64,000 nt of DNA. Source: a virus (Duplodnaviria; Heunggongvirae; Uroviricota; Caudoviricetes). The position numbers and the translations under genes were made by a program. Of the stretch, positions 6,356-57,340 are shown piece by piece (position 1 is the first letter of the stretch; each line of letters opens with the position of its first letter). Location: IMG/VR virus record IMGVR_UViG_3300013102_000006, positions 19,869 through 83,868 of that record; one strand, given 5' to 3'. The notes beneath the pieces were generated by a model, which had not been told where the DNA came from, did no database searches, and saw only the letters and a program-made list of their open reading frames with translations.

Positions 6356-9300
6356 CTAGTTTTTTATAACCAATACATATTCACAGTTACAGTTTGGGTG
6401 TACGTTTCCTGCACTGATTGACTCCCAGTTAATAGGGAGATGTTTCACCTTCTTAGCGCCATTGTCTGAAGTCTCTGTCACAGATAGGATTGAGCCTAGG
6501 TCTGCAAAGTTCTTCATAAATGGAATAGGTGGCATATCAATTAGTAGCTTACAATAAGCACAAGGTGTACCAGTTCGGCTACGTAGCTGTTTGTAAGCCT
6601 GTGGCATAAGACCGCTACTGTTTAGGAATTGTCTGTCTGCTTCAAACTGTGATTGGTTAAATACCCGAGCTGCTTCAGTTCTAGCGATGGTAGTAGCTCG
6701 GTTCTTAGATATTTCTGGGTACTTCTTACGGATAGAGTTAGAGATGCTCGTACGTCCTTCGCCCTGTAGAGCAAGCTTCTGAGCCTCTTTGTACATATCA
6801 GTGTCATCGAACTTACCAGAAAGTACAGCTACTTCTATTTGAGACTGTGTAGGGTTATCAGGAAGGACATCAAGCACTGACTTTTTACCAGCTGCCGCAG
6901 CTGCAGTCACAAGAAGTATGAGTTCGGTGATGATTGCTGCACCATAAGCGATAGTGGCTGCGGTAAGTATATCTTCCATGACCGTAGCAACATGAGATAT
7001 TGATGCTTTTTGAGCCATTTGTTCGATATAGTCCTGTGCCTCAGAAGTCATTTCGTAAGTTCCAACGACTCCATATTCAGCAGAGCGTTGAGCAAGTAGC
7101 TGACGGCCGAATATTGGGTAGAGATTAATGTAGAACACGTTTAGTAACGCGTCTACTTCTTGTTCAAACTTCTTTTGTTGGGCTTTTGTTAGTGGTGCAC
7201 CATTGTCTGTAAGATAACCTAGATTCTGGTTGTTAGCGGCTGCTTCAACCATTTCACGTTCGATTATCTCAAACCCGTCGCGCAATTTGTTTTGCTGAGC
7301 CTTGATAATATCGCGTGTAGCGTCGTCTAAGGCGTTCTCAGCGACGATAAGTCCAGTAGGCGATACTGAGTAGTGTTCATGTCCGATAGAGCTTAGAGAC
7401 GATTCTACAGCGTTGTCAGATTTCTTTGCTTCTTCTTTTCTGTCACCGTAGTTTATGCCTACAGCATCGACAGTCTTACCAGCGTATTCTTTATTGAGTG
7501 TAGACACCCAGTTATTGACATTCGCAGTCTTTTTAACGTATGCAAGTGTCATATGTGGCATGTATTCACTGAAGGTATTAACATGTGGCAATAGTGTAAG
7601 CCGTTCATGGCCATCCACTAGTTCAGAGGTCTTTTCAAGGTGAGCTACGACTGCATAAGAGTCAGGAGTGTCAAAGTACCCAACATGGTTAATCTTTACA
7701 GAGTTTACATTCCACCCTTTTAGAAGTGCGTCAACCTTGTTCTTCCAAGTGTTGCCGTTTTCTAGAAGACCATATAGAAGTGTCACATGAGGAACTGTCT
7801 CTGCAGGTACTGCGCCTTGGTCCCACTTAGGATTAGCGAATAGTTCGTCTTCGTGACCTTGCATGTGCTCCATCACCTTCATAGGCTTAAGATCGAGCAT
7901 AATACAACCAAGGTTATCGGTATCTATCTCCATGTCGTCATATAGCTCAGGAAAGTCGCGTGATGATATCTGGTTAGCTATCTTTATGGAATTGCCAACG
8001 ACTGGCTTAATGCCAGGAATCGCTGTAGATTGAGTTAGAAACTTAGTAGTACTGACAGAGTTGTTACTCGTATCTGGAGTTGGCGATGTTACGTCTTCAG
8101 GAACCGCGCCATCTTCTTCCCGAGCAGTAACAGCATCGGTATTCTGATTATCTGAAGGTGTATCTGGAGTTGGAGGATTAGGGTCGTTATTTTGGTCATC
8201 GATAGGTTCACCAAGCTCCTCCCAAGTAATCTCACCTGATGCAAAGGCAAATGACTTTTGTCTGTCATAACCAGCGTCAATAAGTTGCTGAGCAAGCTTC
8301 ACTTCAGCTGTTCGGATTTCTACATCCTTAAGCTCTGCATCGCGGTCTTTCTCTACTGGAGAGTCAACAACAATCTCGAACTCGTTTTGTTCCCACTCCT
8401 TGTACCATTTACGATAGTCAAGGTTAAGCGCATCAGCAATGTCTTCAGCACGTGGGATGATGGCGTCGACAGTAAAGTTAGCGTCCTGTACTTCTGAAGT
8501 ATCTCGAGTCGTGCCTGATTCCTCAATACCTGCAGTAGTCTTTGACATAGCTGCAACGGCAAGAAGAATGTCCCGTTGAATAGCGTTGATTTTATCAAGA
8601 GCCGCCTTATCAAGGTCAATTTGCATATCTTGCCAGTTAATGACACCAGAGCCATTACCAAAGATAGGCTCACCCTTTTGGTGCCCTATGATACGTGCTT
8701 TGAAGTTCTCAAACTTCTGCGGATCAAGCTCTACGTCAGTGGTTACGATACCAGGGGCTGATATGTTTCCATTAATGGTTTGGCGTGTATAGTCGCTAGC
8801 TTGTCGTAGTGTGAACTGAGACTCTCTAGCGGCGTCCATCATTGAGTATGACTGGTCCTTGTTGAAAGGATTCAACATTCTAATTTCAATGATTTGTTCA
8901 GGAGCCCATTCTCGGTAGAATCCATTATGAGACTCTACATACCCACCGACTTCACCTGTGGTTTCATTGATGACGCGTCGGACTTCATATGGGTTGATAA
9001 GCACGAACTGTTGAACTGCTCCAACAGCGACTTCACCATCTTTTGTTATACGAGAGTTACGTACGGTACCAAGATAGTAAACACCTTTAAGGTCTAGGTA
9101 TGTAGATATTTCATACCAGAATTGCTTCTTTGTGTATTCCTTAGAGCGTTTGATTACCGTTAGATAAGGGTGAACTATTTCCTGGTCTTTTTTCTGGTAC
9201 TGCTCGGTGGTTTTCTTTGATGCTTCGGTTTCAATGAAGCGTCGGCCAAGAACAGAGGTTCTATTGGCACGTTTAGTAATGACTGCGTATCCGTAGTCCT

Positions 9301-9466
9301 TGTACAAATTCTCATCTGACATCTTAACATCAGACCAGTTTTGCATCAATGGTTTTTCTCCGTTGCCGAATCGGAGGAATCTGTTAGCTTCGGAGACAGG
9401 TAGACTATTTTCGGTCTTGTTTGTCAGAGCTTGGACGGCAAGTTTGATTCTTTTTGGAAAGTCCAT
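6356..9466 (-). CDS. Portal protein fused to a LigT-like 2H phosphoesterase domain and a C-terminal Mu-F-like head morphogenesis (minor capsid) domain
   Basis: 1036 aa. Residues about 1-420 look like a portal. Residues about 515-680 carry two H-x-T-x motifs 78 aa apart (VPHVTLLYGLL and MPHMTLAYV), the signature of 2H/LigT phosphoesterases. The C-terminal 190 aa carry Mu-F/SPP1-gp7 family features (TIARTEAARVFNQSQF...CAYCKLL...HPNCNCEY). Confidence 0.75.
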   Translation of the reverse strand: MDFPKRIKLAVQALTNKTENSLPVSEANRFLRFGNGEKPLMQNWSDVKMSDENLYKDYGYAVITKRANRTSVLGRRFIETEASKKTTEQYQKKDQEIVHPYLTVIKRSKEYTKKQFWYEISTYLDLKGVYYLGTVRNSRITKDGEVAVGAVQQFVLINPYEVRRVINETTGEVGGYVESHNGFYREWAPEQIIEIRMLNPFNKDQSYSMMDAARESQFTLRQASDYTRQTINGNISAPGIVTTDVELDPQKFENFKARIIGHQKGEPIFGNGSGVINWQDMQIDLDKAALDKINAIQRDILLAVAAMSKTTAGIEESGTTRDTSEVQDANFTVDAIIPRAEDIADALNLDYRKWYKEWEQNEFEIVVDSPVEKDRDAELKDVEIRTAEVKLAQQLIDAGYDRQKSFAFASGEITWEELGEPIDDQNNDPNPPTPDTPSDNQNTDAVTAREEDGAVPEDVTSPTPDTSNNSVSTTKFLTQSTAIPGIKPVVGNSIKIANQISSRDFPELYDDMEIDTDNLGCIMLDLKPMKVMEHMQGHEDELFANPKWDQGAVPAETVPHVTLLYGLLENGNTWKNKVDALLKGWNVNSVKINHVGYFDTPDSYAVVAHLEKTSELVDGHERLTLLPHVNTFSEYMPHMTLAYVKKTANVNNWVSTLNKEYAGKTVDAVGINYGDRKEEAKKSDNAVESSLSSIGHEHYSVSPTGLIVAENALDDATRDIIKAQQNKLRDGFEIIEREMVEAAANNQNLGYLTDNGAPLTKAQQKKFEQEVDALLNVFYINLYPIFGRQLLAQRSAEYGVVGTYEMTSEAQDYIEQMAQKASISHVATVMEDILTAATIAYGAAIITELILLVTAAAAAGKKSVLDVLPDNPTQSQIEVAVLSGKFDDTDMYKEAQKLALQGEGRTSISNSIRKKYPEISKNRATTIARTEAARVFNQSQFEADRQFLNSSGLMPQAYKQLRSRTGTPCAYCKLLIDMPPIPFMKNFADLGSILSVTETSDNGAKKVKHLPINWESISAGNVHPNCNCEYVLVIKN

Positions 9467-10812: not shown

Positions 10813-11184
10813 CTAAAGCCTAATCTTCTTACCGTCTTTAAAGTCTCGTACTCGCTCAACGATATCATTAAGGGCAAAGTACTTAGGATTACCTAGGTAG
10901 CTAATTGCTCCGTAGATAAGGCCGATACCAACACCCACAGGTACAAGAGCCCAGAAGCTAATGTAGTCTTTAAGGAACCATGCTGCAGTGAATAGCACTA
11001 GCGCAGTAAACAGTTCATTGAGGCCTTTAACGACGTATTGACGTACAAAGATACCCCAGAGTTCGCTTGCAGCAACGCCAAGGCCTTTAGCTAGTGAGTC
11101 AATAATCTTCTTAGCCTCTAGCCCAACCTTCTCGAGCTTATCTACACTGCTCTCTTCGTTGTTGTCCACAGTTTTAGTGACCAT
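10813..11184 (-). CDS. Hypothetical membrane protein
   Basis: 123 aa with two hydrophobic helices. Confidence 0.35.
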   Translation of the reverse strand: MVTKTVDNNEESSVDKLEKVGLEAKKIIDSLAKGLGVAASELWGIFVRQYVVKGLNELFTALVLFTAAWFLKDYISFWALVPVGVGIGLIYGAISYLGNPKYFALNDIVERVRDFKDGKKIRL

Positions 11185-11384
11185 TACTTCTCCTTTAGCG
11201 ATTCTTTAAGTTTGGTAAGATTATAGATACCGTTGTCGCAGTATTCTTCTACAATCTCTCTGAAGTCAGTATTACCTGATCCGTTTCCTTCAAGCACGTT
11301 GCATATGGCAAGTACTATCTGACCAGCATAATTTGCTTCATCGTCAGACATTTTCTCCTCACCTATTTCTTTCACCCAGCTCAT
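11184..11384 (-). CDS. Hypothetical protein
   Basis: 66 aa ORF in the minus-strand array. Confidence 0.3.
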   Translation of the reverse strand: MSWVKEIGEEKMSDDEANYAGQIVLAICNVLEGNGSGNTDFREIVEEYCDNGIYNLTKLKESLKEK

Positions 11385-11569
11385 GATTTACCATTGTTCT
11401 TATTAGCATAGAGGCTGATTGCTTTCTCGGCGTCTTCTTTACTAATAGCGTTATATACTGATATCACCTCATCAGGTAGGTTAGAAATTTGCACTTCCAG
11501 ACCTATTTTACTCTCGTGATACTCATGCGTACCATCTTTAAAGAAGATTACGGTGAATACCTTACTCAT
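11381..11569 (-). CDS. Hypothetical protein
   Basis: 62 aa ORF in the minus-strand array. Confidence 0.3.
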   Translation of the reverse strand: MSKVFTVIFFKDGTHEYHESKIGLEVQISNLPDEVISVYNAISKEDAEKAISLYANKNNGKS

Positions 11570-11810
11570 CTTTAGCTTCAGGCATCTTTAGTTTATAATG
11601 CTCAGCAATACGATTAGCCCACGCCTCATCACCAGTCTCGCTCTTAACAGCATCACGAGCTCCGTTTTCATATTCTACTAGCTCTGTGAACATGTATAGA
11701 GTTTTAGCATCGCGATCACTCCATTTAGAGATGAGCGTGCGCACGGTGGTTGTTTCTGCATTACTACTCATACTATTCTTCCTCCTTGCTCTGACCCTTT
11801 TTGTCAACAA
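11562..11810 (-). CDS. Hypothetical protein
   Basis: 82 aa ORF. Confidence 0.3.
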   Translation of the reverse strand: MLTKRVRARRKNSMSSNAETTTVRTLISKWSDRDAKTLYMFTELVEYENGARDAVKSETGDEAWANRIAEHYKLKMPEAKDE

Positions 11811-11967
11811 CTAGAGCACCTGCGATAGCTGTTAGAATCATGGTCTTAGCCTGTTCGTTGTCTGTCAAGAAGTATCCAAGTGCTGCACCAATAAGCGCTC
11901 CCTTGTTCTCCTTGACAATCTTAGGAATGTTTTCCTTAATACTGTTGCCTACTTTTTCTAAATCCAT
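11773..11967 (-). CDS. Hypothetical small membrane protein
   Basis: 64 aa; hydrophobic stretch GALIGAALGYFL...ILTAIAGALVV. Confidence 0.3.
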   Translation of the reverse strand: MDLEKVGNSIKENIPKIVKENKGALIGAALGYFLTDNEQAKTMILTAIAGALVVDKKGQSKEEE

Positions 11968-12448
11968 ATTACCCTCTCTTATTTGATGTGAAGTTATGGG
12001 CTAGCGAATTCACTCAGGAAAGGAGCAAATCAAGGAACTCGCTAGTCGTAATAGTGTGAGGTAGGGATTCCCGCTATTCCACCCTACATGACTGGTATTT
12101 CTCAGATTTCGTCTGGACCACTGAGAAAGTCCTTTGCTACCATAGCCGAGTCCAGCGTCTACTTTCAGATGACTAGGTGTTCCGTCTAATCATCAACGTC
12201 TATTTCGCCACTCACACTTCGTAGATATTCACTTTCGGTGCAAGTCTCACTCCGTAAACCAGTGCCTCTTGCATTGGATGGCTTTAAGTACTTGAAAGCT
12301 ATATCTACATTCGACAACACAAAGACTAATGTTCGCAGTAGGGAATCAAACCCAGCCCACACACTACCAGAGGCTACTCTCTCACGATTAAGCTGAATCT
12401 TTATGTTGCCATAACTTCACACCAGATTGTTAAAATGCTTCTATTTCG

Positions 12449-12477
12449 ATTGTAAATGATATTTATCGACGAGTCAA
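12449..12477 (-). promoter_or_regulatory. Sigma-70/SigA-type promoter (minus strand): -35 TTGACT, 17-nt spacer, -10 TACAAT
   Basis: Plus-strand attgta (12449-54) and agtcaa (12472-77); member of a repeated promoter family; fires leftward into the ORF-free region 11968-12440. Confidence 0.5.
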
Positions 12478-12480
12478 TAC

Positions 12481-12696
12481 CTAGAATGGCATATCCTCAT
12501 CGTCTGGGTCTTCAGGAAGTTCTACTTGCTTCCATATATACTCAGTTTGTTCAACATTCCAATCCTTATACCATATCCTGCCCTTATCATCTACGAGTCT
12601 GTCACCAACACCGACTTGTAGGTCGCCTGGCATAACCTGTACTACTTTAATCTTTGCCATCGTCTGTTTCCTAACCCTTAAAGAACTTTCCGTCAC
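12481..12696 (-). CDS. Hypothetical protein
   Basis: 71 aa ORF. Confidence 0.3.
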   Translation of the reverse strand: MTESSLRVRKQTMAKIKVVQVMPGDLQVGVGDRLVDDKGRIWYKDWNVEQTEYIWKQVELPEDPDDEDMPF

Positions 12697-12889
12697 CAGT
12701 TCTTCTATTTATACAGTCTGCACCTTGTTGCCTGGTATAATACCATGCATCGCCATATTGTTGCCTACACTTTTCATCCCTGCCTTGCTGTATGTGTATA
12801 CAAAATATTACTACTAACAATAGTAAGATAGTGAGGGTTGCTGCCATTGCAAGTATGCTAATTAATTCTTTATGCTCTATACTAGTCAT
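12671..12889 (-). CDS. Hypothetical membrane protein
   Basis: 72 aa with a hydrophobic core. Confidence 0.3.
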   Translation of the reverse strand: MTSIEHKELISILAMAATLTILLLLVVIFCIHIQQGRDEKCRQQYGDAWYYTRQQGADCINRRTGDGKFFKG

Positions 12890-13000
12890 ATTAAATCCCC
12901 ATCAGGAAATCTGTGATATCGCCTAATGCTTCTTCTGGGCTGATATCATTAGTAATTAGTCCATCTCTTAGCTCTTCAATCTCTGTAATTAAGTCGTCCA

Positions 13001-13243
13001 TCACACTCTCTCCCAGTTCTCGTTTAACATTTCAATATTATCGTATGGAACATTTATTCTAAAGACATTGAATGGTACAAAGATAACCATATCGCCCCAG
13101 TATGGCAGCACCTCAGCAAAATACACCTTGCCATGTCGATAGCCGCAGCTACCGTCTCTGCCGATAAACCTATACCTACTTATCATTAATATCCCTCTTT
13201 GACTCGTCAATAAGCCTTCTGATAGTAACAACTGTCTCGTCAA
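13001..13243 (-). CDS. Hypothetical protein
   Basis: 80 aa ORF; overlaps the upstream ORF by 68 nt. Confidence 0.25.
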   Translation of the reverse strand: MTRQLLLSEGLLTSQRGILMISRYRFIGRDGSCGYRHGKVYFAEVLPYWGDMVIFVPFNVFRINVPYDNIEMLNENWERV

Positions 13244-13511
13244 GAAGATGCTGAATCGTCATATTTACATAGGTAGGAATAAATTTTATGAGCGTCAGAT
13301 CGAGATCACTGTAATACATATAGCCGTTATCTTTAGAGCATATGGCCTCTACCCATCCATCTACTTCTTGCTGTATATATGATTCATCTAGATTCATTAG
13401 GTATGGCATCAGCCTACCCCTGATGATCTTCTTTACATCATCCTTGTCGTCAGTCAAGAAAGCATCACCATCATTTATGTCTCTCACAACGTAGTCTGGC
13501 AACTCATCCAT
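13176..13511 (-). CDS. Hypothetical protein
   Basis: 111 aa ORF. Confidence 0.3.
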   Translation of the reverse strand: MDELPDYVVRDINDGDAFLTDDKDDVKKIIRGRLMPYLMNLDESYIQQEVDGWVEAICSKDNGYMYYSDLDLTLIKFIPTYVNMTIQHLLDETVVTIRRLIDESKRDINDK

Positions 13512-17740: not shown

Positions 17741-18160
17741 TCATAGCTTTATACCTGCATCATCAAGAGCTAGTACAAGTTTTAGGAGGGCCTTGAGAGG
17801 GGTGTCAGAGCGCCCTCCCAGCCCAGTACGACGGGCAATTGATGCCATACCATAGCGGAAATCCCAGCTGTATTCTGTAGCCGACATCGTCAGTAAGTTC
17901 CTATCAATCTCATAGGGTAGCTTACTTAATATATAGTCAGTGGTATAAATAGGAAACATCTGCTCACCAGTTTTATCCTTTGGTCCGAAGTATCTCTTGA
18001 CACGCCAAGTTCTATCATGCTTATCGCGTGGACTAAAGTTAGTGTAATACTCGTGAGATTCCGTCATAGGATACCACCAGTGATTTCTAAGATACACTTC
18101 CTTACATAGCTCGAATAGTTCATTATCCATTGTTCTTATTCCTTGCTTGATTTCCAGCAA
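17741..18160 (-). CDS. Hypothetical protein
   Basis: 139 aa ORF. Confidence 0.3.
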   Translation of the reverse strand: MLEIKQGIRTMDNELFELCKEVYLRNHWWYPMTESHEYYTNFSPRDKHDRTWRVKRYFGPKDKTGEQMFPIYTTDYILSKLPYEIDRNLLTMSATEYSWDFRYGMASIARRTGLGGRSDTPLKALLKLVLALDDAGIKL

Positions 18161-18661: not shown

Positions 18662-18901
18662 CTAGGAGATTATCTCCCAGTTATCCACAAAGTAATCGAA
18701 AGGTATGGTTCTGGTGCTGAACCTATTCAATGAATCGTAACCAGATACACAAACGTATGCCTCTTTCTCTGAGTCACCGAGATTACCATAGCCAGTGATT
18801 GCCCACTCATTGGCTTTACCAATCCTCCTTACACGCCTGCCAAGTGAGATCACGCGTATCATTCGTATACCTTTTGAATATTGGCGATTTTTGTAAGCCA
18901 A
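18662..18901 (-). CDS. Hypothetical protein
   Basis: 79 aa ORF. Confidence 0.3.
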   Translation of the reverse strand: MAYKNRQYSKGIRMIRVISLGRRVRRIGKANEWAITGYGNLGDSEKEAYVCVSGYDSLNRFSTRTIPFDYFVDNWEIIS

Positions 18902-19560
18902 GCATAGTCTGCACGAGCAAAGTAATTGGTATGGTCTTTTAGAATGAAGGTACCATACTTCTGTTGGTCTGTTCGAAGCTCTGGGTCAACATCTTTATTC
19001 AATAGCATCATATGCATCTCAAGTACGCCCTTATTCTGCAGTTCTTTCTGGCGGAAGTTGCTCCTTGCGAGCATTTGGATAGAGTTACGCTCCCAGTCTC
19101 GTTGTCGCCATAGAAATACATTCTGCCATTCGTCTTCAGGTACATTAAATGCTCGAGCATCGAACATGGCAAGATTGACTTTATCATCCATAACCTTACA
19201 TGTCTGCCAAAAATCATTGAAATGCGCTGTAAACATACTTGCAGTAATAGATACGAGCTTATTTATCTCATAATCGTACCAAGCTTCTGTATCAAGCGTA
19301 TCGTAGTCAGTGAGCAGGAAGCTTGCCTCATCAGACTGAACATAAGCCAATTGGAAGCCCTGCATATGCTTAGATGTTTCTCGAGCAGCATATACCATAG
19401 CATCCATAACTGAGCTATCAAATGGCTTATCACAGTTCTTTGTGAACGTATGAAAAGCTTTACCATCTACTCGTATAACTACTGGCGTACGACGCGTTAG
19501 AAGGTGCTTAGGGACAGCCTCATAGCGTTTTACGCGGTCACCCAGTGTGTCTTTATTCAT
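18859..19560 (-). CDS. Thg1-like protein (tRNA-His guanylyltransferase family; 3'-5' nucleotidyltransferase for tRNA 5'-end repair)
   Basis: 233 aa; VVIRVDGKAFHTF matches the Thg1 motif VVVRLDGRNFHRF; AYVQSDEASFLL matches AYGQSDEYSF with the catalytic acidic residues; length fits Thg1-like proteins. Confidence 0.7.
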   Translation of the reverse strand: MNKDTLGDRVKRYEAVPKHLLTRRTPVVIRVDGKAFHTFTKNCDKPFDSSVMDAMVYAARETSKHMQGFQLAYVQSDEASFLLTDYDTLDTEAWYDYEINKLVSITASMFTAHFNDFWQTCKVMDDKVNLAMFDARAFNVPEDEWQNVFLWRQRDWERNSIQMLARSNFRQKELQNKGVLEMHMMLLNKDVDPELRTDQQKYGTFILKDHTNYFARADYAWLTKIANIQKVYE

Positions 19561-34172: not shown

Positions 34173-34347
34173 AATAATCTTTTCCCATTACATAAGACTC
34201 GACAGCTTTATAAATCGATTCGTTATCTTCAGATGTCGACGAAAATATTCTGTCCATAGTCTTTGACTTGTACCGAAGAATTGCAGTCACACCATACTCA
34301 TTTCGTACGATTACTACAGATTCTGGCATTTCTCTTTTAAAAATCAT
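34153..34347 (-). CDS. Hypothetical protein
   Basis: 64 aa ORF. Confidence 0.25.
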   Translation of the reverse strand: MIFKREMPESVVIVRNEYGVTAILRYKSKTMDRIFSSTSEDNESIYKAVESYVMGKDYYGKARR

Positions 34348-35239
34348 AATAAGGGTCTCCTAATTGCATTACTGGTAAGCCAAGTTCGTCTCTCCACATT
34401 CTACAGACTGATGGTCGATCATCGAATATAGCGAGTACATTGTATTTTCCCTTTATGTACTTCTCATACATTTCTCGCTTTACAACGGTATCTTTGACTT
34501 GATTTCCACTGGCATCAGTATGGTCAGAGCGGCGCATGTGTAATTCTTTATAAGCGATATCATTTCGGTCTAGCCAATCTTCAGTCTCAGGTCGGCATAT
34601 CTCATCCCTACCGCTAAATAGTATTATCTCTGCTCGTTCAGTCTCAGCGATAGCATCAATCATAAATGCTACACTTGGGTCTGCCTCGTCTTCACCAACA
34701 AACTTCCAGGCATATGCAGCTTTATCACCAAATCTCTTCCTAGTTGTCATATGCGCTAGCGTTCCATCTATATCTGAGATAACGACATACGGAAGGTTCT
34801 CGTCATATTCAGGAGCGTCTATTGGCTTTTTAACAAATTGATGATACATATCACGTATTACTCGTTCGCCAACTGACCTAGAGCGTTTCAAATCACGCCT
34901 TACGCATTCCTCGATAGGAACCTTAAGGAATGAATCATTTACTTCAAATTCAGCTCCGAACTCATCGGCCATCTTTTTGAGAGACTTCTCATGCACTGGG
35001 TTAAGATTTGTGTCATCAACTACGACGCTCTTGTTGTGTTCTAGTGCCGCGCGAATCATAGCATCTCTTGTCCACAATACTTGCTTTTCATGTTTGCGCT
35101 TATAATGTTCACCAAAGAGCATCTCTCGGATGTCATCTTTATTTACTCGGTAGTACCCACTCTCAGAAAGCGTACGAGCGTACGTACTCTTACCAGATGC
35201 TGGTAGACCCTTTGTCATAATCAGCTTTAATTTTGCCAT
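34337..35239 (-). CDS. pnk: Polynucleotide kinase-phosphatase (T4 Pnk-like: 5'-kinase plus 3'-phosphatase)
   Basis: 300 aa; N-terminal P-loop MTKGLPASGKSTYARTL (kinase); C-terminal HAD phosphatase motif VVISDIDGTLA. Confidence 0.75.
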   Translation of the reverse strand: MAKLKLIMTKGLPASGKSTYARTLSESGYYRVNKDDIREMLFGEHYKRKHEKQVLWTRDAMIRAALEHNKSVVVDDTNLNPVHEKSLKKMADEFGAEFEVNDSFLKVPIEECVRRDLKRSRSVGERVIRDMYHQFVKKPIDAPEYDENLPYVVISDIDGTLAHMTTRKRFGDKAAYAWKFVGEDEADPSVAFMIDAIAETERAEIILFSGRDEICRPETEDWLDRNDIAYKELHMRRSDHTDASGNQVKDTVVKREMYEKYIKGKYNVLAIFDDRPSVCRMWRDELGLPVMQLGDPYYDF

Positions 35240-35240
35240 T

Positions 35241-36164
35241 TTATCGTTCCGTATCAGCTACTGATAGACTGTTATTCAATATGTCGTGATATATTTGAAT
35301 AAACTTCCTATTACACAGCCCTTTTAGTTTTTTAAAGTTAAGAGCAGGTACTTTTTTAACTATTTCCCATATCTCTTCTGTAATGAGGTCGTGGTAGCAA
35401 GTGCCAGCAATTTGGCTGGTGTGCTTCATATTAAGTCGTTCTTCAGTCTGCGACTGCAGCTTTTGAATGATTTTTTCTACACGAGCGACTGTACAGTATT
35501 TGTTAACAACATACATTTCCCAGTATGTTTCTGAGTGCTTATTATTACCACCAAACACAATAGCATTTGATTCCTTGAACTTTTCATGGACAACCTTTGC
35601 ATATACGTGGTCACCAAATTTGTTCACAAAGTTCGCAGCCTTAAGTACTACACCCTCACCTGCAGGTGCAATAGCAGATTTACCTACGAATTCTTTAATC
35701 TCATCAAGCGTAAGTTTACCTTCAGCAAATACGTGAGGATATTCGAGTCCTAGAAATTCTGCTTCGGCTTTTACATCTTCCTGAGGTAGCCACCTATCAT
35801 TAGCTCTGTCGTAAATATCAAACAGATAGATTTTCTCATAGGCTGCATCTGGATATGTAATGGTGTGCTTCACAAGCCATTCGCCATAAAGAATATGGTC
35901 AGGATTTCGGCTAAAGTACATAGCGAGACTTAAGTTATTTTGAACAGCCTCTTGAAAACCTCTAAAAGATTCATCTTCAGGTAGCATTCTGGTACGAGTA
36001 CCGCAACGAATCTTACCATCAAGCTGAAATATAGAGATGTTCGCGCCATCTACTTTTTCTTGAACTATTAGTTCTTCATCTAAGATACCATCGGTCTCTT
36101 CTTTTCCGAGTCGATGTATTTTTTCGTATTTTCTGTATTCCACTTCATTTTCCCCTATATACAT
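35241..36164 (-). CDS. RNA ligase (Rnl2-like ATP-dependent nucleotidyltransferase)
   Basis: 307 aa; motif I QEKVDGANI (KxDG), motif IV GEGVVLK, motif V YAKVVHEKFK; adjacent to pnk as in T4 tRNA repair. Confidence 0.65.
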   Translation of the reverse strand: MYIGENEVEYRKYEKIHRLGKEETDGILDEELIVQEKVDGANISIFQLDGKIRCGTRTRMLPEDESFRGFQEAVQNNLSLAMYFSRNPDHILYGEWLVKHTITYPDAAYEKIYLFDIYDRANDRWLPQEDVKAEAEFLGLEYPHVFAEGKLTLDEIKEFVGKSAIAPAGEGVVLKAANFVNKFGDHVYAKVVHEKFKESNAIVFGGNNKHSETYWEMYVVNKYCTVARVEKIIQKLQSQTEERLNMKHTSQIAGTCYHDLITEEIWEIVKKVPALNFKKLKGLCNRKFIQIYHDILNNSLSVADTER

Positions 36165-36967
36165 TATCTCTTATTGAGCTTATGCTTGTCAATAGGTAGA
36201 ACCTCCCAAAATGAATCATTTTTCTTTACAATAGTAGTTTCAACTGTTGACTCGTCAGGTATGAGTATTTCACGCTGATTTTTAAGTTGCTGATTGAAAT
36301 GTTTACATACAACTGAATAATCAACCATATTAGTATAGCCATTCTGACGTAGTTCTAATCCCATAGAGATATCTGGTCCAAGAGATTGATATGTATGGAA
36401 GACGTGGTTCTTGTATATGTTCGCATCAATCAGTGCGCAGTAGAATCCTCCCGCATCGATGTTTTCTATGCCTGAATCCTTATAGGGAATAGATGTAGTA
36501 CTTGTCGGGTTATAGATATCATTGAACCTCCACCCACCGATATATGGAATTCCCCACCTACCGAGCTCGACACCCTCAGCGTATACACACCCTGGAGTAT
36601 TTCTAAATATGTTCATAAGCTTAGTAAGGGCGTTTCTAGGGACAATTGTGTCATCTTCAGTAAGGAATACGTAATCAGCTATACCCACTCTGCTCTTTGC
36701 AAAATTATGGATAGCAGTAATCCTCTTACGTCGTGCGAGCCAATCGAATCTTTTTACTGGCTTAGTCTCAGGATACTTTACAGTTAAACGTTCGTTAAAC
36801 TTTGTGTCCTGAATCATGTTTCTGACTTTAACGTACAGTTTATTATCACCGTCAACGATACATAGTAAATTAGTATATGTAGGATCGCAGTCTATAAGCT
36901 CGAGCGCTGATATTACATCAGTAAGATATTCTTCTCTCGAGACAGTTAATATTATAGTAATAGTCAT
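36164..36967 (-). CDS. Glycosyltransferase, GT-A fold (family-2-like)
   Basis: 267 aa; N-terminal Rossmann-like start (TITIILTVSRE), DxD-like FLTEDDTIV. Confidence 0.5.
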   Translation of the reverse strand: MTITIILTVSREEYLTDVISALELIDCDPTYTNLLCIVDGDNKLYVKVRNMIQDTKFNERLTVKYPETKPVKRFDWLARRKRITAIHNFAKSRVGIADYVFLTEDDTIVPRNALTKLMNIFRNTPGCVYAEGVELGRWGIPYIGGWRFNDIYNPTSTTSIPYKDSGIENIDAGGFYCALIDANIYKNHVFHTYQSLGPDISMGLELRQNGYTNMVDYSVVCKHFNQQLKNQREILIPDESTVETTIVKKNDSFWEVLPIDKHKLNKR

Positions 36968-37608
36968 AAGTTAACCTTATTAAATTGCTTTCCATCAATA
37001 ATCTCGAGTGCTGTGTAATCTCCAATTGGTGTACCATCTCGTTCTGTTGAAAACGAATCAATACACCATACATTTGGTTCAACTTCCCAGCATGTCTCAC
37101 TTGGAGTGTGACCAAATACTTGGTTAGGTAGATATTGTCTCCTTGATGAATAGTTTGGACTATTAGGGCGCGCCCATAGTGGACTTCCGTCGGTCCATAA
37201 ATCATCGCTATTGCCGCTTATCCATTCCTCTGTATATCCGGCATGCGAGTATGTTATCCCATCTTCAAAAACCGAAATAGGTAAATTTCGCACCCACTCC
37301 TTAAGACTCTTATTCTCTGGCGTATTCAGTAATGCTTGAGTCATGCCATTATAGCCACTTGATAGAACATCTAGGCTATTTACATAGCTATAGTCATGAT
37401 TACCCGTTAAGAATATAAACTTCTCTTTATTAGAATTATGCATGTTCTTTATTCTTTTCCAGGCATTCACACTCTCAATAGGACTTGAGTCCCAATCATC
37501 TGAATAATCGCCAATGAATATAACCTTGTCGTATCTACTTGCTAATTCTTCTACTTTATCAAGTATCCACATCTTAGTGTGAATGTCACCTATGGCAAGT
37601 ATTTTCAT
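36964..37608 (-). CDS. Calcineurin-like metallophosphoesterase
   Basis: 214 aa; MKILAIGDIHTK (GDxH), GDYSDDWD (GDxxDRG-like), GNHD motifs. Confidence 0.65.
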   Translation of the reverse strand: MKILAIGDIHTKMWILDKVEELASRYDKVIFIGDYSDDWDSSPIESVNAWKRIKNMHNSNKEKFIFLTGNHDYSYVNSLDVLSSGYNGMTQALLNTPENKSLKEWVRNLPISVFEDGITYSHAGYTEEWISGNSDDLWTDGSPLWARPNSPNYSSRRQYLPNQVFGHTPSETCWEVEPNVWCIDSFSTERDGTPIGDYTALEIIDGKQFNKVNL

Positions 37609-41413: not shown

Positions 41414-42853
41414 TTATAGCTCTATATCGTTAATTTTTTTGATAAGAGCTTTCTTATCAGTTTCGACCATCTTCATAATGTCGAAAGTCTTTTCTGACCA
41501 GCCAGCTAGAGTCGCAACTCTAGATTCAGGGAAGGCTAATTGCCCATATCCATTAATATCCCATGAGTAAATGAATGGATTTGCATCGTACTTCTTCTTG
41601 TATCGCTCTAAGTCAGCACCTGGATGATAGTACTCAGTCCATGTTTGCATGTCTGAGATGATTACAATTCGGTCATACGCCTTATCAGCTTCTTTGAATA
41701 CCGCATTAATATTTGTACCATGCCCAACGTATCCCTTGCCACCTGTCCAACTTTGGTTAAGGCTGTCTAGCCACTTCATAAGTGTAAGTGTAGAGTCATT
41801 CTTGTTGAATGAAAGATATTCAGCATCGTCACCGAAGTGCATAAGGTCAGCACCAGAGCTTCGTGCAAGAGCTAGGCCAAACATCGCTGCCTTACCAAAT
41901 GCAGACTTTGTGCCACTACCCATTGAACCTGAGTGGTCAATCACAACAAGTGTCTTTCCATCGAACCTAGGAACGTTTGAGAATGATATATCAAGAGCAT
42001 CCGATAAACCAGATAGCACCTTAGAACTTCTCGAGTTATTTTGTAGCTCGTCGTAAGCTGTAAGGAATCGGAATGGCAGCAGAAGTGACTTCTTAATTCG
42101 TGATTCTGTTGTAAGCAATTTAATCGCTGCATCTACTACTTCATCGTCTGTTTCTTCAATAATGTTTCGAAGGTTTCTGACAAGTGCCATGTAACCTATC
42201 TTTCCAGACTTAACAAGCTCACCCCATGCCTCAGCCTTACTGCTGCTATCACCAGATTGGCCAGCTTGCGAAATCTTTGCTTCAAATGTATCGGTATTAC
42301 GTAGCTCGTCTCTAACAAGCTTACCTAACTGCTCGGTGTGCTGTGGGTGCATAAGGTTAACGACGTCTACAAGCTTAACAGACTTACCCGATGCACGATA
42401 TTTAGCCAACTGATAAGCATCGAAGCGTGTAAGCGCTTTTGCGAATCCTTTACGCATTGCGTGACTTTGCTTACCGCCATTTTCCTTAACATATGAAAGA
42501 ATTTCAAGCATGTCGTCAGGTCGGTATGCGATGGAATCAAAGTACTCTTTTAGCCATTCTTCGCCTCTAACATTCATGGCAATCCATCCAGCAACAACGT
42601 GTGACACTGAACGCATACCGAATTCTGTTCGTGCGAATATTGATGCCTTAGCGGCGAATTGTGGATCTACCTTTGCTACAAGCTCTTCTATGCGCGTTTG
42701 GCGCTTTGCACCAGATTCATAGAACCTATCTTCAAGGAATGAAGTTAATAGCGCTGAGACTAATTCTAGTTCAGGCGTCATAGTAAATGCCTCGCCACCA
42801 GCAAGGTTAATTGTCTTGTTTTTTGTTGTCACTGATTTGTTGAATTTACTCAT
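41414..42853 (-). CDS. rsr: Ro60-like (TROVE domain) protein with C-terminal von Willebrand A domain (Rsr ortholog)
   Basis: 479 aa; N-terminus TKNKTINLAGGEAFTMTPELELVSALLTSFLEDRFYESG follows the Ro60/Rsr pattern N-x-(A/D)GG-x-A(F/W)...L..FL.(L/F)G(S/A)EGG(T)(Y/F)Y; C-terminal vWA MIDAS motif LVVIDHSGSMGSG. Confidence 0.6.
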   Translation of the reverse strand: MSKFNKSVTTKNKTINLAGGEAFTMTPELELVSALLTSFLEDRFYESGAKRQTRIEELVAKVDPQFAAKASIFARTEFGMRSVSHVVAGWIAMNVRGEEWLKEYFDSIAYRPDDMLEILSYVKENGGKQSHAMRKGFAKALTRFDAYQLAKYRASGKSVKLVDVVNLMHPQHTEQLGKLVRDELRNTDTFEAKISQAGQSGDSSSKAEAWGELVKSGKIGYMALVRNLRNIIEETDDEVVDAAIKLLTTESRIKKSLLLPFRFLTAYDELQNNSRSSKVLSGLSDALDISFSNVPRFDGKTLVVIDHSGSMGSGTKSAFGKAAMFGLALARSSGADLMHFGDDAEYLSFNKNDSTLTLMKWLDSLNQSWTGGKGYVGHGTNINAVFKEADKAYDRIVIISDMQTWTEYYHPGADLERYKKKYDANPFIYSWDINGYGQLAFPESRVATLAGWSEKTFDIMKMVETDKKALIKKINDIEL

Positions 42854-42889
42854 CAGGATATTCCCTTTTGTTTATACTTTTCTGGAATA

Positions 42890-43200
42890 AGCGGGGATAA
42901 ATTTGCGAGGGTGATTTTTCGTGCTCTACCACTAAGCTATCTCCCCAGATGGCGGGAAGAGGAGGAATCGAACCTCCGTCACGTCGTTAACAGCGAAGTA
43001 ACCCTCACGGTCGTCACCCGCTTATTTCAAAAAACTATCAAGATGGCTCAGGGAAAAAGCAAGCAGAGGTATAAACCCTTTCGGGTCTCGACTGGGATTG
43101 AACCAGCAACATTTTCTGATTAAGAGAAATGATCTACCATTGATCTACGAAGTAACTCTACTAATCGTCACCTAAGCCATCTATACTGTAAAGGTTCTAT
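42890..43200 (-). ncRNA. Candidate tRNA-like non-coding RNAs (Y-RNA/YrlA-like?) in the 5' region of rsr
   Basis: Three minus-strand tRNA-like modules (full descriptions in the finding for 41414-43200): 42890-42956, 42941-43030 and 43075-43175. Hexamer cgaagtaac repeated at 42994 and 43146. Confidence 0.3.
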
Positions 43201-43255
43201 AATCCATTATACTGCATATGGTTGCATCATGTCAACAATAATGACAAGTTTTATT

Positions 43256-44838: not shown

Positions 44839-45072
44839 TCAAGACACGGTCTTCTTCTTTTTAGCTTTCATCTTCTTTTCGTCAAAAGTTCTTTGACTGG
44901 TAAGTTGGAGCCCATGCTTAGTTGAAAACTTCGATTTACACTTTGGGCATCGTTCGTGATGAACACCTCGAGTAAACTTAAACCATTCCTCATGAATGTC
45001 ACAATAACCGACAAGAGCATTTCTCTCTTCTGGTGTAGTGCTGTCCATCTCGTCAGTTGTAGGTACTGTCAT
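44839..45072 (-). CDS. Hypothetical zinc-ribbon protein
   Basis: 77 aa; CDIHEEW...CPKCKSKF. Confidence 0.3.
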   Translation of the reverse strand: MTVPTTDEMDSTTPEERNALVGYCDIHEEWFKFTRGVHHERCPKCKSKFSTKHGLQLTSQRTFDEKKMKAKKKKTVS

Positions 45073-46022
45073 TATTTTAGCAAATGTTTAGTTCTATCAT
45101 TTGAGAATTTAAGACGCTCGCAGATACCAATCAATAATTCCTTACGGACTACTTCATGTTTAGGATACTTCAACTGTCCCTTAGACTCAGTCTCAGTAAA
45201 TGGATAACCGATGTTATTGAATAATTTATTCCATCTATCGTCGAGCGTATCTCCGTCGCTGATACCGAATTCGAAATCTCCCTCTACCCATGCATCTTGC
45301 CATGCAAGCCATACTTCAGGAATCATGTACTTCATGACATCTGTGTTAACAAGAATTGCTATACCAGATAATGGGCTTTTACCCATAAGAAGCTTATCAA
45401 GTTCGGCAATCCATCGCTCCTTACTTACTCGAGTAATTTCACTTGCGTGCTGTCTCATTACTCCAATAAAGTTGGGGTCTACTTCAAAACCAAGTTGTGA
45501 TGCAAATCTTGCCGCACGTAGCATACGAAGAGGGTCTTCGATAATACGGTCTTTACCCATTCCTACTGCTTTAATCTTCTTAGCAAGAATATCTAAGCGG
45601 CCCCCATGTGGATCAAAGTATTCATCATCTTTCAGAACAATAGAATTTATAGTGAAGTCGCGTCGTGATAGATCAAGCATAAGGTCATCAGTGAAGTCTA
45701 CTTCTGGTTTTCTTGATTTACCATCGTACTTATCTGTTCGGTACGTGGTTACCTCGACATAGACATATTCTACATTACCAGAATCATCTAGAATAGGTAG
45801 CTTGAATCCTATCGTTCCAAATCTCTTACCGATTGAGTATGCTTTTCTGCCAGCATCTTGAATATTCTTCTCGATTTCATCGGGAGTTAGAGACGTACAG
45901 TAGTCCCAGTCTTTTGGTTCGCGCCCAAGAATAATGTCCCTTACTGAGCCACCTACAAGGTTAACTGGAGCATCACCAAAGATGTTCTTTATTTCGGTCT
46001 GTAGCTTTTTAGCTTTTTCCAT
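45072..46022 (-). CDS. tRNA nucleotidyltransferase (CCA-adding enzyme / poly(A) polymerase head domain)
   Basis: 316 aa; NLVGGSVRDIILGREPKDWDY is the GG(S/A)VRD...D.D signature of class-II CCA/poly(A) nucleotidyltransferases; no C-terminal HD domain. Confidence 0.7.
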   Translation of the reverse strand: MEKAKKLQTEIKNIFGDAPVNLVGGSVRDIILGREPKDWDYCTSLTPDEIEKNIQDAGRKAYSIGKRFGTIGFKLPILDDSGNVEYVYVEVTTYRTDKYDGKSRKPEVDFTDDLMLDLSRRDFTINSIVLKDDEYFDPHGGRLDILAKKIKAVGMGKDRIIEDPLRMLRAARFASQLGFEVDPNFIGVMRQHASEITRVSKERWIAELDKLLMGKSPLSGIAILVNTDVMKYMIPEVWLAWQDAWVEGDFEFGISDGDTLDDRWNKLFNNIGYPFTETESKGQLKYPKHEVVRKELLIGICERLKFSNDRTKHLLK

Positions 46023-57261: not shown

Positions 57262-57340
57262 CGCAGCTAGTGGGATTTGAACCCACGGTCTGAGAGGTTA
57301 TGCCTCCCTGTTTTACTTTTAAACTATAGCACGTCACAAT
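57262..57340 (-). pseudogene. Degenerate tRNA-like element (canonical T-arm; no convincing acceptor or anticodon arm; no CCA)
   Basis: GTGGG-ATTTGAA-CCCAC T-arm, but the upstream sequence gives only a 5-nt 'anticodon' loop (GGAGG-CAUAA-CCUCU) and the acceptor strands do not pair. Confidence 0.3.

What the first reader, a model, noticed from the sequence alone, without database searches (positions are those of the whole stretch)
11968..12480. ORF-free region of about 510 bp, GC-richer and structured, fired into by a consensus promoter; candidate large ncRNA
In an otherwise tightly packed gene array there is a stretch with no ORF of 60 aa or more on either strand, and the longest minus-strand ORF I could find is about 20 codons. 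Its GC content is visibly higher than its surroundings. A perfect member of the phage promoter family (TTGACT-17-TACAAT, 12449-12477) points into it. Internal long-range complementarity is visible (for example CTAGCGA ... TCGCTAG at 12003-12050; GGGAATCAAACCC at 12339-12351). I could not match it to group I/II intron, RNase P or tmRNA consensus by eye.
Basis: seen in the sequence. Interest (0 to 1): 0.6.

Follow-up and report, generated by a model that had tools for sequence, protein, structure and literature searches.

The report
New large structured phage RNA
The gene-free stretch encodes a roughly 440-460-nucleotide, elaborately folded non-coding RNA that is conserved in a small clade of uncultured ~84-kb phages, matches no catalogued RNA family, and has no known function.

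Summary
The ORF-free gap is real, and it is the only gap of 400 nt or more outside the tRNA cluster. It holds an RNA gene on the window's minus strand.

- **Transcription:** a promoter of the phage's own family (12477-12449) fires into it.
- **Fold:** a 16-19-bp terminal helix (12424-12409 with 11999-11984) closes a multi-domain fold.
- **Conservation:** six other phage contigs, found through portal homologues, carry the same element at the same position. A more distant contig carries only its ~225-nt core.
- **Covariation:** across these, 57 hand-registered base pairs are 97% paired. Twenty-five show compensatory changes; slid controls are 31-45% paired.
- **Strand:** G-U pairs mark the gene-sense strand (26 G-U on it, 1 on the antisense).
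- **Coding:** no ORF is conserved.
- **Known families:** nothing in Rfam 15 matches, in the window or in relatives. Motif scans of one representative genome per species found no copy.

The family is modular: optional domains and neighbouring long-helix-closed modules come and go.

Function is not shown. I favour an autonomous, stable RNA released from the head of the virion-gene transcript, acting through its invariant helix and about 50 conserved core nucleotides. A cis-acting leader is the main rival.

The phage also encodes Ro60, two Y-like RNAs and an RNA-repair gene set, so a Ro60 link is worth testing.

The parts
12449..12477 (-). Promoter TTGACT-17-TACAAT. The likely transcription start is near 12442 (inferred from spacing).
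   Evidence: Consensus scan. The same promoter family sits directly upstream of the element in L004, L005, L006/7, L009, L010 and L011.
11981..12442 (-). The whole structured RNA, about 460 nt from the inferred start to the end of the 3' arm of P1. No terminator follows it. The next gene's ribosome-binding site (11980-11972) and ATG (11967) come directly after.
12427..12437 (-). Conserved single-stranded leader (C)AUUUUAACAA just before P1; ACAUUAACAA in relatives.
   Evidence: Sequence comparison of 7 loci.
12409..12424 (-). P1, 5' strand: UGGUGUGAAGUUAUGG. It is almost invariant across the clade.
   Evidence: Inverted repeat I1. 16 pairs are 100% paired in 7 sequences, with one compensatory U-A to A-U change and G-C/G-U changes.
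11984..11999 (-). P1, 3' strand: CCAUAACUUCACAUCA.
12315..12408 (-). P2 (12408-12399 with 12324-12315), enclosing a variable domain. That domain holds the hairpin GGG-UUUGAUU-CCC (12351-12339).
   Evidence: 8 counted pairs are 100% paired, 3 with compensatory change. The inner domain is shared only with L005.
12221..12308 (-). P3 (GUAGAUAU 12308-12301 with AUAUCUAC 12228-12221) and its inner domain.
   Evidence: Present in the minimum-free-energy fold. Equivalent helices with different sequence occur in L004, L005 and L010, read by eye; they were not counted formally.
12054..12217 (-). Conserved core module. It contains Pa (12217-12211 / 12060-12054) and Pb (12210-12206 / 12157-12153). The near-repeat joining strands are GAAAUAGACGU (12206-12196) and GAAAGUAGA (12166-12158). 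It also contains the variable hairpin Pc (12195-12168) and Pd1 (12142-12138 / 12097-12093). Pd2 is 12128-12121 / 12105-12098. A possible pseudoknot pairs CUGGAC (12155-12150) with GUCCAG (12118-12113). Pe is 12087-12082 / 12066-12061, with the conserved loop UGG..AGCGGGAAU.
   Evidence: Covariance model R1 recovers non-seed members L007, L011 and L032 (E 1e-13 to 2.5e-7). Pa, Pb and Pe covary. The core stands alone in L032, closed by a 19-bp helix read by eye (fold z = -6.45). The pseudoknot rests on only two sequences, window and L009, read by eye.
12001..12045 (-). P9 hairpin (CUAGCGA 12045-12039 with UCGCUAG 12007-12001), next to the 3' strand of P1.
   Evidence: Inverted repeat I2. All 7 pairs show compensatory change across 7 sequences. 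The registers were chosen by hand.

Best explanation
Window 12442-11981 (minus strand) is the gene for a previously uncatalogued, large, modular structured RNA of a clade of uncultured ~84-kb phages.

Shown:
- A host-type promoter of the phage's own family points into it.
- The sequence folds into a long terminal helix (P1). P1 closes a junction carrying P2, P3, a conserved ~165-nt core (Pa, Pb, Pc, Pd, Pe) and P9.
- These helices are kept by compensatory changes in relatives.
- No protein-coding frame is conserved.

Inferred:
- The RNA is made as the first ~460 nt of the transcript that continues into the small-gene, portal and virion genes.
- It is an autonomous, stable RNA rather than a switch for the next gene. 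It is probably released by a double-strand-specific endonuclease (RNase III type) cutting the 16-19-bp P1.
- It acts through two surfaces that are nearly invariant in sequence, not only in pairing. One is the P1 duplex. The other is about 50 mostly unpaired core nucleotides: UGGCGRAAUAGMCGU, GAAAGUARACGCU and GUAGGGUG..AGCGGRAAUCCCUAC. These would be binding platforms for a protein or for other RNA copies.
- On this view it is a scaffold or ornate RNA in the manner of ROOL/GOLLD or of Y RNAs.
For: **Gap and promoter.**

**Conserved position.** The element lies about 2 kb upstream of the portal gene in 6 other distinct contigs whose portal proteins are only 61-89% identical. DNA similarity is confined to islands of 77-97% identity.

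**Covariation.**
- Curated helices: 57 pairs are 97.2% paired and 25 pairs show change on both sides. None of 500 shuffles reached the observed values. Slid controls were 31-45% paired.
- An alignment made independently by a covariance model gives 7 of 18 pairs with compensatory change and 92.8% paired.

**Strand.** The sense strand has 26 G-U pairs and 11 non-pairs. The antisense strand has 1 G-U and 36 non-pairs.

**No coding signal.** No ORF is conserved.

**Autonomy.**
- The core occurs alone in L032, closed by its own 19-bp helix (fold z = -6.45).
- In L010 the typical core is absent from the P1-bounded element; only a degenerate core-like stretch lies downstream of the 3' arm.
- About 280-330 nt of other non-coding sequence separates the 3' strand of P1 from the next gene in L007 and L011, and about 440 nt in L010.
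- Module H in relatives is likewise closed by a long, sequence-conserved helix.

**Not a known family.** There is no Rfam match in the window or in relatives.
Against: - No expression data exist. Transcript ends, processing and stability are all inferred.
- No terminator follows the RNA in the window. The 3' strand of P1 ends 3 nt before the next gene's ribosome-binding site. That layout equally fits a 5' leader.
- There are only 7-8 distinct sequences and several are closely related, so compensatory changes are few independent events. Helices Pd2 and P9 were registered by hand, which inflates their counts.
- P1 is nearly invariant, so it carries little covariation: 1 compensatory pair out of 16.
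- RNase III cleavage and a binding partner are conjecture.
- Several relatives (L012, L100, L102) lack the RNA, so it is dispensable for the phage type.
Confidence: 0.55

Rival explanations
1. It is a cis-acting 5' leader of the virion-gene operon. The structured RNA stays attached to the mRNA. It controls downstream expression, for example by processive antitermination like HK022 put RNA, by mRNA stabilisation through a 5' structure, or by ligand or protein sensing.
For: The promoter is immediately upstream and no terminator lies between the RNA and the next gene. The 3' strand of P1 ends 3-25 nt before the next gene's ribosome-binding site in the window, L004, L005 and L009. The slot is always at the head of the gene run leading to the portal.
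Against: - Spacing to the next gene is not kept. About 280-440 nt of other non-coding modules intervene in L007, L011 and L010.
- The core is detached from the P1 element in L010 and stands alone in L032.
- Closing helices of 16-19 bp are too stable for a switching P1.
- No alternative terminator/antiterminator pairing was seen.
- Relatives with the same downstream genes lack the RNA (L102, L012).
Confidence: 0.25
2. It is a giant Y-RNA-like partner of the phage's own Ro60 protein. The conserved P1 duplex, whose 5' strand reads GGUGUGAAG, would be the Ro60 site. The inner modules would tether effectors or substrates for the phage's RNA repair and quality-control enzymes.
For: - The phage encodes a TROVE/Ro60 protein (41414-42853) and an RNA-repair gene set.
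- Y RNAs are defined by a long stem formed by the 5' and 3' ends that carries the Ro60 site, plus variable modules (PMC4201824).
- By eye, the P1 5' strand GGUGUGAAG matches 7 of 9 positions of the vertebrate GGUCCGA(AG) site. The first seven bases are quoted in PMC4201824; the last two are from my own recollection of human Y1 RNA. P1 also resembles GGUGACGA in the two Y-like RNAs next to Ro60.
- Ro60 homologues lie on contigs of exactly the same length as those of L010 and L011.
Against: - The RNA lies 29 kb from the Ro60 gene, whereas reported Y RNAs lie within 4 kb (PMC4201824).
- Two ordinary Y-like RNAs already sit next to Ro60.
- P1 lacks the bulge of the classical site and does not match the bacterial motif GNCGAAN0-1G exactly.
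- At ~450 nt it is far larger than the 80-130 nt of Y RNAs.
- No tRNA-like domain was detected.
Confidence: 0.1
3. It is a DNA-level element, such as a replication origin, a packaging site, or a miniature inverted-repeat mobile element bounded by the 19-bp inverted repeat.
For: Terminal inverted repeats with conserved sequence flank variable inner content. In four relatives a third copy of the arm sequence lies in the promoter spacer.
Against: - G-U asymmetry is strong: 26 against 1.
- Seven nested internal helices covary.
- There are no iterons or tandem repeats and no target-site duplication.
- There is only one copy per genome.
- Motif scans found no copy in one representative genome per species.
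Confidence: 0.04
4. It holds unrecognised small protein genes or a decayed gene.
For: A 58-codon GTG ORF lies on the sense strand and a 52-codon ORF on the antisense strand.
Against: The sense ORF is cut to 28 codons in the closest relative. No ORF is shared across the family in frame or start, and cross-hits reflect only nucleotide islands. Gene callers left the gap empty, apart from one 76-aa opposite-strand call in L006 that is not repeated in the equivalent L007 record.
Confidence: 0.03

Closest known systems
ROOL and GOLLD RNAs (large 'ornate' RNAs of phages and prophages)
   Same: All are large, multi-domain, covariation-supported RNAs encoded by phages, with no known protein partner or function. 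GOLLD has a conserved part and a variable part (PMC12286853), as this RNA has a conserved core and optional domains.
   Different: No match to either Rfam model, in the window or in relatives. It is not next to the tRNA island, which lies about 41 kb away. At about 440-780 nt it is closed by a long, sequence-invariant terminal helix. Oligomerisation is untested.
Y RNAs / YrlA (Ro60-associated RNAs)
   Same: The 5' and 3' ends form a long stem with conserved sequence, and the interior is modular and variable. The phage encodes Ro60.
   Different: It is 3-6 times larger and lies 29 kb from the Ro60 gene instead of within 4 kb. It has no tRNA-like domain, no bulged site and no exact GNCGAA motif. 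Genuine Y-like RNAs are present elsewhere, at about 42885-43181.
RNase III-processed structures in phage polycistronic transcripts (e.g. T7 early RNA) and rRNA precursors
   Same: Long duplexes bracket a functional RNA inside a longer transcript. This comparison rests on established knowledge and is an inference here.
   Different: Cleavage was not tested. P1 is conserved in sequence far beyond what RNase III needs.
HK022 put RNA and other antitermination leaders
   Same: A promoter-proximal structured RNA sits at the head of a long phage operon.
   Different: It is about six times larger. Its spacing to downstream genes is not fixed, and the core also occurs as a stand-alone unit.

Membership tests
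Any Rfam 15 family (including GOLLD, ROOL, OLE, HEARO, raiA, RNase P, tmRNA, 6S, group I/II introns, T-box, Y RNA, phi29 pRNA) | Match to the family's covariance model | tested here: not met
   No relevant hit at E<=10 in window 11000-13500, in the gaps of L011 and L004, or in the L032 core. Nothing reached gathering score in the whole window except tRNAs, nor in 7 relatives.
GOLLD / ROOL | Encoded in phages or prophages, often beside tRNA islands (PMC12286853) | tested here: inconclusive
   It is phage-encoded, but the tRNA cluster is at 53.5-57.7 kb, about 41 kb away. No tRNA lies within 10 kb in relatives.
GOLLD / ROOL | RNA-only homo-oligomeric cage | not testable with these tools
   This needs cryo-EM or native gels of the transcribed RNA.
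Y RNA / YrlA | Long stem formed by pairing of the 5' and 3' ends | tested here: met
   P1 has 16 contiguous pairs, kept in 7 sequences.
Y RNA / YrlA | Encoded within about 4 kb of Ro60 on the same strand (PMC4201824) | tested here: not met
   The strand is the same, but the RNA is at 12.0-12.4 kb and the Ro60 gene at 41.4-42.9 kb.
Y RNA / YrlA | 5' motif GNCGAAN0-1G, or GGUCCGA with a bulge | tested here: inconclusive
   P1 reads GGUGUGAAG. That is 7 of 9 positions of GGUCCGAAG, with no bulge and no exact GNCGAA. The comparison was made by eye.
Y RNA / YrlA | tRNA-like domain; length 80-130 nt | tested here: not met
   No tRNA-model hit in the region at E<=10 and no ARAGORN call. The length is about 440-460 nt.
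Bacterial RNase P RNA (considered for the plus strand because of GAGAAAGUCC at 12126-12135) | Covariance-model match; P4 pseudoknot formed by conserved regions CR-I and CR-V; correct strand | tested here: not met
   There is no Rfam hit on either strand. The string lies inside the covarying hairpin Pd2 of the opposite strand. G-U asymmetry excludes the plus strand.
Riboswitch or cis-regulatory leader | Fixed link between the conserved fold and a downstream expression platform (terminator or ribosome-binding site) | tested here: not met
   Distance to the next gene ranges from 3 nt to about 440 nt, with unrelated modules in between. No terminator-like site was found.
Miniature inverted-repeat transposable element | Terminal inverted repeats plus target-site duplication, multiple copies, no strand preference | tested here: not met
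   There is a single copy, no flanking duplication, and strong strand asymmetry of wobble pairs.

The most novel reading that the evidence does not exclude
The RNA would be the founding member of a new class of phage RNA scaffolds, with two possible forms:
- A giant Y-RNA-like adaptor whose invariant P1 duplex docks the phage's Ro60. Its swappable inner modules would present or recruit substrates for the phage's RNA-repair enzymes (PNKP, RNA ligase, Thg1, CCA-adding enzyme).
- A self-assembling or catalytic RNA built around the conserved core.

The whole slot would be an 'island' of helix-bounded RNA cassettes that phages exchange.
Probability: 0.12. Interest if true: 0.85.

Novelty: new variant of a known kind. 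Interest (0 to 1): 0.66.

Why it matters
Large, elaborately folded bacterial and phage RNAs are rare. Those studied (OLE, GOLLD, ROOL) turned out to form unexpected assemblies (PMC12286853). This family adds a well-supported new example with three unusual properties:
- a closing helix and core that are conserved in sequence, not only in pairing;
- a modular, cassette-like make-up;
- a home in phages that also carry Ro60, Y-like RNAs, 24 tRNAs and a full RNA heal-and-seal set.

Together these give concrete, testable hypotheses about RNA-based functions during infection. They also give a covariance model with which more members can be collected.

Tried and rejected
**Database searches that found nothing**
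- Nucleotide searches of INPHARED phages with the region and with 12 kb around it found nothing, in both near and distant modes. The portal protein hit only the RNA-ligase domain of actinophage proteins.
- A single-protein portal scan of IMG/VR found nothing.
- Scans with the Pe motif gave mostly chance hits in GC-rich coding DNA, in metagenomes and in genomes. Only L014/L022 and L016/L032 were real.
- Scans for the P1 arm and the J1 motif in IMG/VR added nothing new.

**Identities considered and dropped**
- *tRNA or tmRNA (including permuted tmRNA).* This was suggested by GGGUUUGAUUCCC. ARAGORN and Rfam found nothing, and the hairpin is shared only with L005.
- *RNase P RNA on the plus strand.* This was suggested by GAGAAAGUCC..CCAUAG. 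There is no model hit, it is the wrong strand, and the string is part of hairpin Pd2.
- *T-box.* AGGGUGG..GCGGG resembles the T-box sequence. There is no model hit, and UGGN becomes UGAC in L009 and L011.
- *Group I intron.* An AGAUAUAG string resembles the S element. There is no model hit and no split host gene.
- *Retron-like ncRNA.* No reverse transcriptase is encoded nearby.

**Other checks**
- More distant portal relatives (46% identity or less) have no homologous RNA, and their gaps differ.
- Antisense targets of the conserved loops within the window were no more frequent than chance.
- Neighbouring small proteins have no informative family hits.
- MAFFT misaligned the variable middle of the core. 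I therefore used hand-registered helix segments and a covariance-model alignment.

Full report
**Observation**

The window is a phage genome fragment. Genes run almost entirely on the minus strand, and 24 tRNA genes lie at 53.5-57.7 kb. Between the stop of a 59-aa gene (12481) and the start of a 64-aa gene (11967) there is no ORF of 60 aa or more on either strand. This is the only such gap of 400 nt or more outside the tRNA cluster.

A promoter-like site, TTGACT-17-TACAAT, lies at 12477-12449 on the minus strand and points into the gap. It belongs to a repeated family, TTGACT..TTTACAAT, whose four window copies all lie on the gene-sense strand.

GC content is only slightly raised: 0.427 against a window mean of 0.411, the 70th percentile. 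The dominant feature was missed: a 19-nt inverted repeat joining 12427-12409 to 11999-11981, so the two ends of the putative transcript pair. The minus-strand fold has z = -3.1, and the plus strand is similar. Single-sequence folding therefore does not decide the strand.

**Is it a known RNA?**

No Rfam 15 family matches window 11000-13500 even at E<=10. The whole window gives only tRNA hits at gathering score. ARAGORN finds no tRNA or tmRNA in the gap. The region, and 12 kb around it, has no nucleotide relative among 50,697 deposited phage genomes.

**Relatives**

Exact-protein look-ups showed that the window equals an 84.8-kb metagenome contig. A second contig is identical over the region, so neither is informative.

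The portal protein is fused to a 2H-phosphoesterase ('2'-5' RNA ligase') domain. It has many metagenomic homologues. I fetched contigs for homologues of 49-89% identity.

Six distinct relatives keep a gene-free gap of about 0.57-1.1 kb at the same place, about 2 kb upstream of the portal gene. They are L004, L005, L006/7/8, L009, L010 and L011. Each has the same promoter family at the upstream edge of the gap. BLAST shows similarity only in islands of 77-97% identity:
- the promoter;
- ACAUUAACAAyyUGGUGUGAAGUUAUGGC;
- GUGAGUGGCGAAAUAGACGU;
- CAUGUAGGGUGG..AGCGGGAAUCCCUACCUCAC;
- CCAUAACUUCACAUCAAU.

A scan of public collections with the hairpin motif found one further, more distant locus (L016 = L032). 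It carries only the central core. All 21 hits in one-genome-per-species bacterial and archaeal assemblies were chance matches.

**Structure and covariation**

Reading the seven full sequences side by side gives this architecture, in window minus-strand coordinates:

| Helix | 5' strand | 3' strand | Note |
|---|---|---|---|
| P1 | 12424-12409 | 11999-11984 | terminal helix |
| P2 | 12408-12399 | 12324-12315 | encloses a variable domain |
| P3 | 12308-12301 | 12228-12221 | |
| Pa | 12217-12211 | 12060-12054 | closes the core |
| Pb | 12210-12206 | 12157-12153 | core |
| Pc | 12195-12168 | | variable hairpin, core |
| Pd1 | 12142-12138 | 12097-12093 | core |
| Pd2 | 12128-12121 | 12105-12098 | core |
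| Pe | 12087-12082 | 12066-12061 | core |
| P9 | 12045-12039 | 12007-12001 | |

Because MAFFT misaligned the variable parts, I joined the helix strands of each sequence with fixed linkers and counted pairs. Results:
- 57 pairs are 97.2% paired.
- 25 pairs have changes on both sides.
- None of 500 shuffles reached any of the observed measures.
- Partners slid by 1-3 columns are 31-45% paired.

Caveats: I chose the registers of Pd2 and P9 by hand; the sequences are related; P1 is almost invariant, with 1 compensatory pair.

As a less hand-tuned check, I built a covariance model from four sequences with only Pa, Pb and Pe annotated. It recovered the three members left out: L007 at 1e-13, L011 at 1e-9 and L032 at 2.5e-7. 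It found nothing in 17 more distant loci. On its alignment, 7 of 18 pairs show compensatory change.

The wobble pairs decide the strand. There are 26 G-U pairs and 11 non-pairs on the gene-sense strand, against 1 G-U and 36 non-pairs on the other.

No ORF is conserved. The 58-codon sense ORF of the window is cut to 28 codons in its closest relative.

**Modularity**

The window carries the shortest version. Other members differ as follows:
- L005, L007, L009 and L011 expand Pc.
- L007, L009 and L011 insert a ~170-nt module between the core and P9.
- L004 has about 500 nt between the promoter and P1. This includes 'module H', closed by its own 9+13-bp helix. Module H occurs alone in L101, L102 and L103.
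- L010 and L011 share a further ~190-nt module after P1.
- In L010 the P1-bounded element lacks the typical core. Only a degenerate form lies downstream.
- In L032 the core stands alone, closed by a 19-bp helix read by eye, with fold z = -6.45.
- L012, L100 and L102 lack the RNA.

The region therefore behaves as a slot holding helix-bounded RNA cassettes.

**How it probably works**

Shown: a promoter-driven locus on the gene-sense strand, with a conserved covarying fold and no coding signal.

Inferred: no terminator follows it, and the next gene's ribosome-binding site starts 3 nt after P1. The RNA is therefore first made as the 5' part of the transcript that runs on toward the portal gene.

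Three observations argue that it is an autonomous RNA rather than a switch:
- The spacing to the next gene is not conserved.
- The core exists as a stand-alone unit.
- The closing helices are long and stable.

The near-invariance of the P1 sequence and of about 50 unpaired core nucleotides points to recognition by a partner, across phages whose portal proteins are only ~61-65% identical. The two near-identical joining strands, GAAAUAGAC and GAAAGUAGAC, probably form a symmetric non-canonical internal loop. That reading rests on my own knowledge of loop-E-like motifs and was not tested.

I propose release by an RNase III-type cut in P1, followed by action as a scaffold or ornate RNA. The main rival is a cis-acting leader.

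**Context noticed late**

The phage encodes the following:
- a TROVE/Ro60 protein (41414-42853);
- PNKP;
- an RNA ligase;
- a Thg1-like enzyme;
- a CCA-adding or poly(A) polymerase;
- RlaP.

Directly upstream of the Ro60 gene lie two Y-RNA-like RNAs with tRNA-like arms. This is the arrangement described for bacterial and phage YrlA RNAs (PMC4201824).

The large RNA shares the Y-RNA design of a conserved terminal stem plus modules. By eye, its 5' stem strand GGUGUGAAG resembles the Ro60-contacted GGUCCGA(AG). But it is 29 kb away, far larger, unbulged, and lacks a tRNA-like domain. I therefore keep a Ro60 link as a minority hypothesis that can be tested.

Ro60 homologues occur on contigs of the same lengths as those of L010 and L011. 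That is consistent with the hypothesis but does not discriminate.

**Comparison and novelty**

In kind, it is closest to ROOL and GOLLD. These are large ornate phage RNAs of unknown function, one with conserved and variable halves (PMC12286853). It fails their models and is not at a tRNA island. It is a new family, rare in current data: 7-8 distinct sequences, all from metagenomes.

Noticed in passing
window 41414-42853 (minus) and 42885-43233 (minus): A Ro60/TROVE protein gene is preceded by promoter TTGACA-N18-TATAAT (43233-43204). Two Y-RNA-like RNAs follow, at about 43181-43030 and 43025-42885. Both have long terminal stems containing GGUGACGA and tRNA-like T and D arms. One gives a partial Rfam tRNA hit at 43088-43150 (42.8 bits) that ARAGORN does not call. 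The fold z-score is -5.0. It looks like a phage YrlA-type Ro60/Y RNA module.
   Followed up: partly
window 18859-19560, 34337-36164, 36964-37608, 45072-46022, 47266-47931: The window holds a dense RNA-repair and tRNA-maintenance gene set: a Thg1-like enzyme, PNKP (kinase-phosphatase), an RNA ligase, a metallophosphoesterase, a CCA-adding or poly(A) polymerase, and RlaP. These sit alongside 24 tRNA genes.
   Followed up: partly
window 6356-9466 (minus): The 1036-aa portal protein is fused to a 2H-phosphoesterase ('2'-5' RNA ligase', faint Acb1-like) domain and a head-morphogenesis (MuF/gp7-like) domain. The fusion is conserved in many metagenomic homologues.
   Followed up: partly
L004 2240-2476; L101 5578-5690; L102 6812-6968; L103 1261-1417; related ends in L007 1290-1590: 'Module H' is a second non-coding module in the same slot of relatives. 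It is closed by a long conserved helix, UUGAGCGUAGUAGUGCUGGUAGUAA ... UUGCUACUAGCACCAUACGCUCAA, and has a variable interior. It is absent from the window.
   Followed up: partly
L011 ~8500-8680 and L010 ~8700-8870: A further conserved non-coding module of ~190 nt lies after the 3' arm of P1: ..GGGGAAACCAyACCUUUGCAAAGGCGGCG..CCGAACAGCUCCCC... It has no Rfam match.
   Followed up: no
L004 13609-14843; L006 18550-19127; L010 16967-17601; L011 18886-19563; also L100, L101, L102: A second conserved gene-free region with its own promoter of the same family lies upstream of the ~720-835-aa virion gene. Its last ~130 nt are conserved even in relatives that lack the large RNA. The equivalent region lies outside the window.
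   Followed up: partly
L006 7587-7615, L009 7502-7531, L010 7764-7792, L011 7569-7597: In these relatives the spacer of the ncRNA promoter contains TTCACACCA (L010 and L011 carry one-base variants). This matches the 3' arm of P1 and is the complement of the 5' arm, so an inverted repeat brackets the -10 element and the transcription start. It is absent from the window's promoter.
   Followed up: no
window 57266-57330 (minus): A weak Rfam tRNA hit (39.5 bits, model positions 4-67) inside the tRNA cluster is not called by ARAGORN. It may be a degenerate or tRNA-like element.
   Followed up: no
window 12126-12148 (plus): The plus-strand string GAGAAAGTCCTTTGCTACCATAG resembles conserved region CR-I of RNase P RNA by eye. 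It is the complement of hairpin Pd2/Pd1 of the minus-strand RNA, and no RNase P model matches.
   Followed up: yes
L045 8760-8880: A distant relative has, upstream of its portal gene, a gap with repeated TATATAGCGTG units. These are iteron-like and unrelated to the RNA.
   Followed up: no
window 17854-17864 (minus): GGATTTCCGCT could pair over 11 positions, including one G-U, with the conserved Pe loop AGCGGGAAUCC. The number of such matches is within chance expectation.
   Followed up: no
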